Shown: positions 15,190 through 15,310 of the stretch, piece by piece | Position numbering within the stretch: position 1 is the first letter of the stretch | How the letters are laid out: each line of letters starts with the position of its first letter | Assembly: GCF_003334355.1 (NCBI RefSeq) | Contig: NZ_QOWP01000001.1 | Length of the DNA: 64,000 bases | Source: Escherichia coli | GTDB lineage: Bacteria > Pseudomonadota > Gammaproteobacteria > Enterobacterales > Enterobacteriaceae | Strand: one strand, 5' to 3' | Notes under the pieces: model-generated | The model's database searches: none | What the model was told of the DNA's origin: nothing | The model's input: only the letters and a program-made list of their open reading frames with translations | Made by a program: the position numbers and the translations under genes

Positions 15190-15310
15190 TTTTCCCCCTC
15201 GCCCTTTCAGGGAGAGGGCCGTGGTGAGGGTAAATATTCGCGCCAGTGCCGGCCTGTTCCCCTCACCCTAACCCTCTCCCCAAAGGGGCGAGGGGACTGT
15301 CTGAGCACTT
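15190..15310. repeat. GC-rich inverted pair of ~40-bp palindromic elements (cccctcaccct / gggagaggg motifs), non-REP family
   Basis: cccctcgccctttcagggagagggccgtggtgaggg and cccctcaccctaaccctctccccaaaggggcgagggg are near reverse complements separated by ~30 bp. Confidence 0.7.

What the first reader, a model, noticed from the sequence alone, without database searches (positions are those of the whole stretch)
15190..15310. Large GC-rich palindrome (inverted pair of ~40-bp elements) downstream of gcvP
Two elements built from cccctcaccct / gggagaggg / gggcgagggg motifs lie in inverted orientation about 30 bp apart, forming a potential cruciform or long RNA hairpin of roughly 110 bp. They are distinct from canonical REP units and sit between the gcvP terminator and ygfF. 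I cannot assign the family with certainty (possibly a BoxC-type element).
Basis: seen in the sequence. Interest (0 to 1): 0.35.

Follow-up and report, generated by a model that had tools for sequence, protein, structure and literature searches.

The report
Known BoxC inverted repeat pair
The GC-rich palindrome between gcvP and ygfF is real, but it is a copy of a repeat family already catalogued in E. coli (BoxC, also called PIT or TMECO triplex motifs), and this exact locus is listed in the literature, so it is ordinary rather than new.

Summary
Two 39-nt arms (15195-15233 and 15257-15295) are 79% complementary. They fold far better than shuffled sequence, as RNA on the minus strand (-77.4 kcal/mol, z -6.5) and as DNA (z -4.9).

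Each arm is one BoxC / PIT / "TMECO" unit: CCCTCNCCC, loop, GGGNGAGGG, 3-nt loop, GGGNGAGGG. The plus-strand arm is type B (loop CCG). The minus-strand arm is type A (loop TTA). The window differs from K-12 MG1655 at 1 of 281 bases here. Holder et al. 2015 (PMC4666352, Table 1) list this pair as TMECO #10 and #11.

The family is dispersed, with a median of 18 places per E. coli genome across 5,426 genomes.

New details from this work:
- The pair lies in a ~141-bp composite (15185-15325) that is 81-84% identical to copies at alx-sstT and fepB-entC.
- The composite sits in a ~205-bp E. coli-specific insertion between the gcvP terminator and the ygfF ribosome-binding site.
- 44% of E. coli genomes lack ygfF and the pair together.

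The most likely nature is a structure-prone, selfish or neutral repeat with no demonstrated function. Published tests found no promoter or terminator activity and no triplex in vivo. Novelty: already known. Interest: low.

The parts
15196..15230 (+). BoxC / PIT / TMECO unit, type B with one mismatched triplet ('B mm'). Pyrimidine block CCCTCGCCC 15196-15204; loop 1 TTTCA 15205-15209; purine block GGGAGAGGG 15210-15218; loop 2 CCG 15219-15221; third block TGGTGAGGG 15222-15230.
   Evidence: Pattern match. Identical to K-12 TMECO #10 except G->T at 15222. It carries the type-B 5' leader ...GCTTTTCC, as other type-B copies do.
15260..15294 (-). BoxC / PIT / TMECO unit, type A with one mismatched triplet ('A mm'). 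It reads CCCTCGCCC-CTTTG-GGGAGAGGG-TTA-GGGTGAGGG on the minus strand. Plus-strand coordinates: block 3 15260-15268, loop 2 15269-15271, block 2 15272-15280, loop 1 15281-15285, block 1 15286-15294.
   Evidence: Pattern match. Identical to K-12 TMECO #11. It shares the type-A 5' leader (GTGCTCAGACAGTC) with single type-A copies in K-12.
15231..15259 (.). 29-nt spacer between the two triplex cores. It forms the loop of the long hairpin and is itself part of the repeated composite.
   Evidence: 79-83% identical to the spacers of the alx-sstT and fepB-entC pairs, while the sequence outside the composite is 25-40% identical.
15195..15295 (.). The whole inverted repeat: arms 15195-15233 and 15257-15295. 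It is a potential long hairpin in RNA or ssDNA.
15185..15325 (.). Composite repeat unit of ~141 bp: type-B leader, arm B, spacer, arm A, then a ~30-bp tail ending ...TTTGTCATC.
   Evidence: Alignment A4. Identity is 81-84% to the K-12 alx-sstT and fepB-entC composites and 62% to the shorter hrpB-mrcB one; flanking sequence is 25-40% identical.
15128..15332 (.). About 205 bp present in E. coli but absent from Citrobacter, Klebsiella, Metakosakonia and a cryptic Escherichia lineage. In those, the gcvP terminator T-tract runs straight into the ygfF ribosome-binding site. The stretch contains the composite plus ~58 bp of unique sequence (15128-15184).
   Evidence: The boundaries were placed by eye from the alignments and are uncertain by a few bases.
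15333..15352 (-). gcvTHP intrinsic terminator hairpin (AAAGGCGC-TTCG-GCGCCTTT, then TT-AG on the minus strand). It is not part of the repeat. It marks the right edge of both the insertion and the population-level indel.
   Evidence: Fold z -4.73. Conserved in Citrobacter, Klebsiella and Metakosakonia. In ygfF-less E. coli, homology resumes at ~15329.
15222..15222 (+). T where most E. coli have G. It is the first base of the third block of arm B, and it breaks the strict TMECO consensus and the third G-run.
   Evidence: The exact 61-mer carrying T is found in only 51 genomes; 3,080 genomes match at 95-99% identity. All six other strains aligned (K-12 plus five) carry G here.

Best explanation
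This is an inverted pair of BoxC elements (also called PIT elements or TMECO triplex motifs). One is type B on the plus strand and one is type A on the minus strand. They are embedded in a ~141-bp composite repeat that was inserted, in the E. coli lineage, between the gcvP terminator and the ygfF ribosome-binding site.

How it most likely 'works': it is a selfish or neutral dispersed repeat with no dedicated function for its neighbours. Its biological effect comes from the structures it can adopt when single-stranded.
- Each unit can fold back twice into a purine-motif intrastrand triplex (shown in vitro by others).
- The two units together can form a ~39-bp imperfect hairpin.
- During replication or repair, such structures favour slippage, small deletions and larger indels. 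The locus is therefore unusually variable between strains.

Status of each step:
- Shown here: family identity, copy number, composite structure, insertion relative to other genera, and presence/absence and small-indel polymorphism.
- Shown by others: triplex formation in ssDNA oligonucleotides; no triplex in duplex DNA or in vivo; no promoter or terminator activity.
- Inferred: that structure formation during replication causes the variability, and that the element has no selected function at this locus.

The confidence of 0.6 refers to this mechanism. Confidence in the family identity alone is above 0.95.
For: Identity:
- Both arms match the TMECO consensus.
- The locus is 280/281 identical to K-12, where it is listed as TMECO #10 and #11.
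- The subfamily-specific 5' leaders match other K-12 copies.

Dispersed family:
- All 5,426 E. coli genomes have matches to the composite, with a median of 18 places per genome (range 1-31). This agrees with the 18 loci and 23 motifs reported for MG1655.
- The motif is multi-copy in very distant bacteria. Inverted pairs recur there.

Composite unit:
- Identity to the alx-sstT and fepB-entC copies is 81-84%, including the non-palindromic spacer and tail. The flanks are at 25-40%.

Insertion:
- Citrobacter, Klebsiella, Metakosakonia and cryptic Escherichia all have the terminator followed directly by the ygfF RBS.

Instability:
- 2,369 of 5,426 genomes lack ygfF. About 2,400 lack the pair together with ygfF, with a breakpoint ~35 bp from arm A.
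- Within ygfF+ strains there is a 6-bp slippage-type deletion inside arm A, a 1-bp deletion in the C-run before arm B, and substitutions at the N position.
- Holder et al. report far more variation at TMECO loci than at control intergenic sites.

Against a dedicated function:
- The composite's orientation relative to neighbouring genes is inconsistent among the K-12 copies.
- The commonest variant carries a triplet mismatch and melts lower than the perfect motif. This fits descent from a master copy better than selection for stability.
- No promoter-like or terminator-like site is found at the pair.
- The literature reports no promoter or terminator activity and no gene-class association.
Against: - The causal link between structure and instability is correlative. 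Repeats may simply accumulate where the genome already tolerates change.
- In vivo DMS footprinting found no triplex, and duplex DNA showed none.
- Among ygfF+ genomes the pair is almost always present (3,026 of 3,057) and nearly invariant. This could reflect constraint as well as recent common ancestry.
- At this locus the strand transcribed with gcvP and ygfF is the one on which the loop-2 mismatches become G-U wobbles, giving the more stable RNA. An RNA role specific to this locus is therefore not excluded.
- No transposase or mobilisation mechanism is known. The possible 3-bp TTA duplication at the insertion junctions is ambiguous.
Confidence: 0.6

Rival explanations
1. It is an RNA-level cis element. 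The pair is transcribed on the minus strand, either by read-through of the gcvP terminator or as a ygfF 5' leader. Its ~39-bp hairpin would then stabilise the upstream gcvTHP mRNA against 3' exonucleases (as REP elements do), or insulate or attenuate ygfF expression.
For: - The minus-strand RNA hairpin is very stable (-77.4 kcal/mol, z -6.45). It is more stable than the plus-strand one (-69.7), because TTA opposite CGG gives two U-G wobbles only on the minus strand.
- Both flanking genes are on the minus strand.
- The insertion shortened the terminator T-tract from TTTATTTTTT to TTTTTAG, which might increase read-through.
- A second, degenerate BoxC-like pair lies inside the same operon at 18285-18357.
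Against: - In the other K-12 composites the neighbouring genes run along the opposite (C-A mismatch) strand at alx-sstT and hrpB-mrcB. At fepB-entC they diverge, so the element has no consistent transcriptional orientation.
- No U-tract follows the hairpin on either strand.
- The literature reports no terminator or promoter activity and no effect on RNA polymerase for PIT elements.
- 44% of E. coli do without the element and without ygfF.
- No transcription data were available here.
Confidence: 0.15
2. It is a non-autonomous mobile element (MITE-like). The ~141-bp A+B composite is the transposing unit, its two BoxC arms act as terminal inverted repeats, and it prefers to land next to terminator hairpins.
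For: - The composite, including its spacer and tail, is repeated at 81-84% identity at unlinked loci, with unrelated flanks.
- It is a clean lineage-specific insertion relative to four other lineages.
- In the window the tail end (GTCATC) lies 7 nt from the gcvP terminator hairpin. At alx-sstT a stem-loop followed by a T-run lies 6 nt from the tail; this was read by eye from the sequence and not folded.
- Every '+ then -' pair found in other taxa also combines two different loop-2 variants.
Against: - No clear target-site duplication is seen (only a possible TTA).
- The arms are internal rather than terminal, with an asymmetric 30-bp tail.
- No cognate transposase is known.
- Holder et al. found no association with transposons, phages or plasmids. 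Here only 3 phage records match, and the plasmid matches are mostly on very large replicons.
- Most loci are syntenic across strains, so activity, if any, is ancient or rare.
Confidence: 0.2
3. It is a DNA-level protein-binding or topological site: a cruciform or binding site for IHF, gyrase or another nucleoid protein, analogous to BIMEs.
For: - It is a palindromic intergenic repeat like REP/BIME.
- The ssDNA hairpin is predicted to be stable.
Against: - No IHF consensus occurs at or near the locus, and there is no REP similarity.
- A 23-29-nt central spacer and 79% arm complementarity make cruciform extrusion from duplex DNA unfavourable. This is an inference from established cruciform kinetics.
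- Duplex TMECO DNA behaves as B-DNA in CD and NMR.
- No binding protein has been reported.
Confidence: 0.04
4. It is a chance GC-rich palindrome with no relatives.
For: None.
Against: - The pattern is expected 0.00 times in shuffles.
- Fold z-scores are -5 to -6.5.
- There is a median of 18 places per genome in 5,426 genomes.
Confidence: 0

Closest known systems
BoxC repeats of E. coli (Bachellier et al.), also called PIT elements (Hoyne, Maher et al. 2000/2002) and TMECO (Holder et al. 2015, PMC4666352)
   Same: - The consensus is the same, and the type A (TTA) and type B (CCG) subtypes are the same.
- The 'one A plus one B in inverted configuration' arrangement matches what is described for five MG1655 sites.
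- This very locus is TMECO #10/#11.
- The units are ~56 bp once the 5' leader is included.
- The elements are intergenic and multi-copy.
   Different: - The type-B arm in this window carries a rare G->T at 15222 and so fails the strict consensus by one base.
- I found no published statement, in what I could read, that the pair sits in a ~141-bp composite with a homologous spacer and tail. I could not read Hoyne et al. 2000 or Bachellier et al. 1999.
REP / BIME (PU) elements
   Same: - Both are short, GC-rich, palindromic intergenic repeats.
- Both often sit just downstream of genes and next to terminators.
- The same spacers host REPs in related genera: gcvP-ygfF in cryptic Escherichia and Metakosakonia, gcvH-gcvP in Citrobacter.
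   Different: - The sequences are unrelated. This element has a purine/pyrimidine strand asymmetry with triplex potential rather than a simple stem-loop.
- No IHF site is present.
- No RAYT-type transposase and no gyrase or Pol I binding are known for BoxC.
ERIC/IRU and other bacterial MITE-like repeats
   Same: - The size class of the composite is similar (~140 bp).
- Both have a long imperfect hairpin, are intergenic and dispersed, and show presence/absence between lineages.
   Different: - There are no terminal inverted repeats at the true ends, and no clear target-site duplication.
- The building block is a 36-nt triplex motif that also occurs singly.
H-DNA / mirror-repeat triplex and G-quadruplex motifs
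   Same: - Both have homopurine/homopyrimidine blocks.
- The purine strand of arm A, GGGG-AGA-GGG-TTA-GGG-TGA-GGGG, also fits the canonical G-quadruplex pattern (read directly from the sequence).
   Different: - This is an intrastrand, double fold-back class II purine motif, not H-DNA.
- NMR of the oligonucleotide supports a triplex, not a quadruplex.
RSA repeats of E. coli K-12 (150/151 bp, 6 copies in the original GenBank annotation)
   Same: The length class and the low copy number are similar to the ~141-bp composite.
   Different: - This could not be tested, because no RSA sequence or coordinates were available to me.
- The composite copies vary in length, whereas RSA is given as a uniform 150/151 bp. 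They are probably different families.

Membership tests
BoxC / PIT / TMECO | Consensus 5'-CCCTCNCCC N3-6 GGGNGAGGG N3 GGGNGAGGG-3' (Holder et al. 2015) | tested here: met
   Arm A (15260-15294, minus strand) matches exactly. Arm B (15196-15230, plus strand) matches except for T instead of G at 15222. The K-12 ortholog of arm B matches fully.
BoxC / PIT / TMECO | Orthology to a catalogued copy | tested here: met
   The window is 280/281 identical to NC_000913.3 3045893-3046173 (L001:2394-2674, which corresponds to window 15100-15380). Table 1 lists #10 at 3,045,989-3,046,024 (+) and #11 at 3,046,087-3,046,052 (-). These positions coincide with the window arms once the offset is applied.
BoxC / PIT / TMECO | Dispersed, multi-copy and intergenic | tested here: met
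   The median is 18 places per genome in 5,426 E. coli genomes. The pair lies in the ygfF-gcvP spacer. All ten other K-12 copies I fetched are intergenic.
BoxC / PIT / TMECO | Unit of ~56 bp (51-59), i.e. the core plus a conserved leader | tested here: met
   Type-A copies share ~14-18 nt 5' of the core (...GCGCTCGGTCGGTC; the window has GTGCTCAGACAGTC). Type-B copies share ...TTTTC(T/C).
BoxC / PIT / TMECO | Paired copies combine one type A with one type B in inverted orientation | tested here: met
   Loop 2 is CCG in arm B and TTA in arm A. The rule is stated.
BoxC / PIT / TMECO | Forms an intrastrand purine-motif triplex as single-stranded DNA | not testable with these tools
   Nearest-neighbour folding does not model Hoogsteen pairs. 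It gives only weak intra-arm hairpins (-7.7 to -9.8 kcal/mol, z -1.1 to -1.9). The literature reports Tm 74 C for A mm and 70 C for B mm oligonucleotides, with NMR support for a triplex. The effect of the T at 15222 is untested.
REP / BIME | REP (PU) consensus stem-loop, often with an IHF-binding L motif | tested here: not met
   No REP-derived family matches 14300-16000 even at E<=1, while a naRNA4/REP hit is found at 11602-11679. No IHF consensus occurs at the locus.
Intrinsic terminator | GC-rich hairpin immediately followed by a U/T tract | tested here: not met
   No terminator-like site is found at the pair. The sequence after the hairpin is GGAAAAGCG on the minus strand and ACTGTCTGAG on the plus strand. 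The true gcvP terminator is the separate hairpin at 15333-15352.
MITE | Terminal inverted repeats at the element ends, plus a target-site duplication | tested here: inconclusive
   The insertion relative to other genera is clear. The inverted arms are internal to the 141-bp unit, and only an ambiguous TTA repeat flanks the 205-bp insertion.

The most novel reading that the evidence does not exclude
The unit that spreads is not the 36-nt triplex motif but the ~141-bp A+B composite: leader, arm B, conserved spacer, arm A, 30-bp tail. On this reading the composite is a discrete, MITE-like insertion module that lands beside terminator hairpins. At this locus it separated ygfF from the gcvTHP terminator and truncated the terminator's T-tract. 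This created a long structured leader that rewired ygfF expression and predisposed the segment to loss, as seen in the 44% of strains that lack it. With the degenerate BoxC-like pair in the gcvH-gcvP spacer, gcvP would be bracketed by two such modules.
Probability: 0.15. Interest if true: 0.4.

Novelty: already known. Interest (0 to 1): 0.14.

Why it matters
It matters little as a discovery. The element family has been known since the 1990s, and this copy is in a published table.

It is still a useful annotation. It explains a conspicuous palindrome, and it warns against calling the 41- and 58-codon ORFs that run through it (15146-15271 and 15178-15354, plus strand). It also flags the bglA-ygfF-gcvP junction as a variable site in E. 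coli.

What BoxC elements do, and how they spread, remains open. This locus is a convenient test case because it offers three natural states: a clean ancestral state in other genera, a filled state, and a deleted state.

Tried and rejected
- **Rfam.** The permissive scan of 14300-16000 gave only sub-threshold hits to eukaryotic miRNA and viral hairpin models (20-25 bits against gathering scores of 40-87). I rejected these as generic hairpin matches.
- **Promoter and terminator scan.** Scanning 14900-15600 found nothing at the pair. It also missed the real gcvP terminator, because the T-tract is partly inside the stem. I confirmed the terminator by folding instead.
- **IHF consensus.** None was found at the locus.
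- **First motif search.** My first pattern used the wrong spacing and found nothing. I corrected it.
- **Genome-contig scan.** It shows a wide taxonomic spread but gave no E. coli copies, so I fetched K-12 copies one at a time using the published coordinates.
- **Target-site duplication.** Only an ambiguous TTA flanks the 205-bp insertion. I did not claim it.
- **Compensatory changes between arms.** I looked across paralogous composites and found no consistent pattern. There are too few copies, so I did not run a formal covariation count.
- **Whether the composite equals 'RSA'.** I found only a table of lengths and counts and no sequence, so this is unresolved.
- **Paper searches.** Four failed because of queueing, including the one on ygfF/gcvP transcription. 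I have no transcript data.
- **Phages.** A search gave only 3 weak partial hits. I did not follow them up.

Full report

Yes. The window sequence at 15190-15310 contains an inverted repeat with arms 15195-15233 and 15257-15295. Each arm is 39 nt, the arms are 79% complementary, and 23 nt lie between them. GC content is 66% over the repeat, against 52% for the window.

The predicted folds are far better than those of shuffled sequence:

| Strand and molecule | Energy (kcal/mol) | z-score |
|---|---|---|
| Minus-strand RNA | -77.4 (shuffles -50.1 +/- 4.2) | -6.45 |
| Plus-strand RNA | -69.7 | -5.44 |
| Plus-strand ssDNA | -33.2 | -4.93 |

The repeat lies in the 266-bp spacer between ygfF (14365-15108) and gcvP (15375-18248), both on the minus strand. 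The gcvP terminator is a separate hairpin at 15333-15352.

**2. What is it?**

Each arm has the architecture pyrimidine block, loop, purine block, 3-nt loop, purine block.
- Arm B, plus strand 15196-15230: CCCTCGCCC-TTTCA-GGGAGAGGG-CCG-TGGTGAGGG.
- Arm A, minus strand 15294-15260: CCCTCGCCC-CTTTG-GGGAGAGGG-TTA-GGGTGAGGG.

The pattern occurs only at these two places in the 64-kb window, against 0.00 expected.

A literature search for BoxC led to Holder et al. 2015 (PMC4666352). That paper treats BoxC (1990s), PIT elements (Hoyne, Maher et al., 2000) and its own 'TMECO' as one family. The consensus is CCCTCNCCC-N3-6-GGGNGAGGG-N3-GGGNGAGGG. Subtype A has loop 2 = TTA and subtype B has loop 2 = CCG.

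Table 1 of that paper lists 23 motifs at 18 MG1655 loci. Two of them are:
- #10, type B mm, 3,045,989-3,046,024 (+): CCCTCGCCCTTTCAGGGAGAGGGCCGGGGTGAGGGT.
- #11, type A mm, 3,046,087-3,046,052 (-): CCCTCGCCCCTTTGGGGAGAGGGTTAGGGTGAGGGG.

I fetched the K-12 region and aligned it. The window is identical to K-12 at 280 of 281 positions across the spacer. The only difference is G->T at window 15222, the first base of the third block of arm B. The finding is therefore exactly the published pair #10/#11.

The paper also states that five MG1655 sites carry inverted pairs, always one type A with one type B. The T allele is rare. The exact 61-mer containing it occurs in 51 genomes, against about 3,080 genomes that match at 95-99% identity. 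All six other strains I aligned (K-12 plus five) carry G at this position.

**3. Family properties checked here**

A blastn search with the 141-bp composite hits all 5,426 complete E. coli genomes. The median is 18 places per genome, with a range of 1-31. This agrees with the 18 MG1655 loci in the literature.

The strict motif is also multi-copy in very distant bacteria: a Gracilibacteria MAG, Polaromonas, Contendobacter and other MAGs.

Among those 120 loci I found 16 close pairs, in both topologies. Every '+ then -' pair combined two different loop-2 sequences.

The composite is almost absent from phage records, with only 3 partial hits. On plasmids it occurs mainly on very large replicons of Klebsiella, rhizobia, Azospirillum and Aeromonas.

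I aligned 16 units from this window and ten other K-12 loci, 11 loci in all.
- Type-A units share a 5' leader (...GCGCTCGGTCGGTC; the window has GTGCTCAGACAGTC).
- Type-B units share ...TTTTC(T/C).
- Leader plus core gives the ~56-bp BoxC length of the original annotation.

It is not a REP. There is no REP-type hit at the locus in a permissive Rfam scan, although a REP-derived naRNA4 hit exists at 11602-11679. There is no IHF consensus, and no promoter-like or terminator-like site at the pair.

**4. Details beyond the catalogue entry**

(a) The pair is part of a larger repeated unit. Window 15185-15325 aligns with the K-12 pairs at alx-sstT and fepB-entC at 84% and 81% identity.
- The 29-nt spacer alone is 79-83% identical.
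- The ~30-bp tail ending TTTGTCATC is 65-74% identical.
- The sequence on either side is 25-40% identical.
- The hrpB-mrcB pair is a shorter, more diverged version (62%).
- The lldD-trmL pair has the opposite topology, '- then +', with a 59-bp spacer.

(b) The element is an insertion specific to E. coli. YgfF orthologs (83-85% identical) in Citrobacter, Klebsiella and Metakosakonia, and a 97% ortholog in a cryptic Escherichia lineage, all lie downstream of gcvP.
- In each, the terminator is followed directly by the ygfF RBS: AAAGGCGCTTCGGCGCCTTTATTTTTTGGGAGAAACGTTATG or a close variant.
- E. coli has about 205 extra bases (15128-15332) between GCGCCTTT and ATTTTTCTCGGAAAAACAAATG. These comprise the composite plus 58 bp of unique sequence.
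- The insertion also shortens the T-tract.
- The cryptic lineage instead has two tandem ~190-bp units, each a terminator copy plus REPs. Metakosakonia has REPs upstream of the terminator.
- This spacer is therefore a repeat-insertion hot spot.

(c) There is presence/absence polymorphism within E. coli.
- ygfF is found in 3,057 of 5,426 genomes.
- The junction including the pair is found in 3,026.
- In the remaining ~2,400, homology to the window stops at ~15329-15331, at the terminator.
- Two such genomes, an O157:H7 strain and strain 1444, were inspected. bglA abuts gcvP with a 165-bp spacer that contains a REP-like element and unrelated sequence.

(d) Small variants occur inside the pair among ygfF+ strains:
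- a 6-bp deletion (ACCCTA, between the direct repeats ACCCT...ACCCT) in arm A;
- a 1-bp deletion in the C-run before arm B;
- C/T/G at the N position of block 1 of arm A.

These fit the 'TMECO mutated' and slippage categories of Holder et al..

**5. How does it work?**

Published experiments, as reported in PMC4666352:
- Single-stranded oligonucleotides of types A mm and B mm, the two types at this locus, form stable triplexes. Their Tm values are 74 and 70 C, and NMR imino signals favour a triplex over a G-quadruplex.
- With the complementary strand present, the DNA is an ordinary duplex.
- In vivo DMS footprinting showed no protection.
- PIT elements had no promoter or terminator activity and no effect on RNA polymerase in vivo.
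- No gene-class or distance bias was found.
- TMECO loci are much more variable between strains than control spacers.

My own tests add three points.
- The composite's orientation relative to neighbouring genes is not conserved. Here the coding strand is the one with G-U wobbles. At alx-sstT and hrpB-mrcB it is the opposite strand, and at fepB-entC the flanking genes diverge. This argues against a family-wide RNA function.
- In a nearest-neighbour model, the inter-arm hairpin (-33 kcal/mol as ssDNA) outcompetes the two intra-arm hairpins (about -8 to -10 each) whenever both arms are single-stranded. Hoogsteen pairs are not modelled.
- The 23-29-nt central spacer and 79% complementarity make cruciform extrusion from duplex DNA unlikely. 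This is an inference from established cruciform behaviour.

I therefore commit to the following, at about 0.6 for the mechanism and more than 0.95 for the identity. This is a selfish or neutral, structure-prone repeat. Its only consistent effect is local instability, through a transient hairpin or triplex on single-stranded DNA during replication or repair.

The main rivals are a locus-specific RNA hairpin role (0.15) and an explicitly MITE-like mobile composite (0.2). The second concerns origin and is compatible with the main reading.

**6. Comparison and novelty**

The closest known family is BoxC/PIT/TMECO, and every defining feature I could test is met. The one exception is a single-base departure in arm B of this strain. 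Triplex formation itself cannot be tested with these tools.

The element resembles REP/BIME and ERIC in lifestyle but not in sequence or known partners. Whether the 141-bp composite corresponds to the 'RSA' repeats (150/151 bp, 6 copies) could not be tested.

The finding is already known. The composite structure, the insertion relative to other genera and the 44% joint absence with ygfF are modest additions.

**7. Verdict**

Novelty: already known. Interest is about 0.14.

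Noticed in passing
window 18285-18357 (minus strand), gcvH-gcvP spacer: A degenerate BoxC-like inverted pair lies inside the gcvTHP operon: CCTCTTC-TGCG-GGAGAGG-ATCA-GGGTGAGG, a 10-nt spacer, then CCTCACCC-TCA-CTCTCTTC-GTAA-GGAGAGAGG. The RNA folds into three hairpins (-44.3 kcal/mol, z -4.35). It is conserved in O157:H7 and cryptic Escherichia. In Citrobacter it is replaced by a REP, and in Klebsiella by other palindromes. gcvP is thus flanked on both sides by BoxC-type pairs.
   Followed up: partly
window ~14309-15332 (ygfF plus the BoxC pair): This segment is a presence/absence polymorphism in E. coli. 2,369 of 5,426 complete genomes lack ygfF, including O157:H7. In these, bglA abuts gcvP with a 165-bp spacer that contains a REP-like element. 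ygfF is ancestral at this position, because Citrobacter, Klebsiella, Metakosakonia and cryptic Escherichia all have it.
   Followed up: yes
L137:3095-3500 (cryptic Escherichia, GCA_004323655.1): The gcvP-ygfF spacer is 405 bp. It consists of two tandem ~190-bp units, each with a copy of the gcvP terminator hairpin plus two REP-like elements. There is no BoxC.
   Followed up: partly
window 15222: T replaces the usual G at the first base of the third purine block of arm B. The exact 61-mer occurs in only 51 of 5,426 genomes, including ATCC 8739 and strain 7/2. The change breaks both the strict triplex consensus and the third G-run of the potential G-quadruplex.
   Followed up: yes
window 25190-25373, 26022-26172, 11602-11679, 39244-39286 (all plus strand): Rfam gathering-threshold hits: 6S RNA (SsrS), SIB RNA, naRNA4/CssrE (REP-derived) and ES036/CssrF.
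   Followed up: no
L010-L023 (Gracilibacteria MAG) and L072-L088 (Polaromonas MAG), among others: The strict E. coli TMECO pattern occurs in many copies per genome in phylogenetically remote bacteria, including a candidate-phyla-radiation Gracilibacteria MAG. Inverted pairs there also combine two different loop-2 variants.
   Followed up: partly
window 15146-15271 and 15178-15354 (plus strand): Mechanical ORFs of 41 and 58 codons run through the repeat. RefSeq annotates no gene there. They are most likely artefacts of the GC-rich repeat.
   Followed up: no
L142 (K-12 yjdP-phnP spacer), upstream of TMECO #22: A further degenerate BoxC-like fragment (GCATCGCCCCTCACCCCAATGGGGAGAGGGAG) lies about 40 bp from the catalogued single copy. 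Some 'single' copies may be decayed pairs.
   Followed up: no
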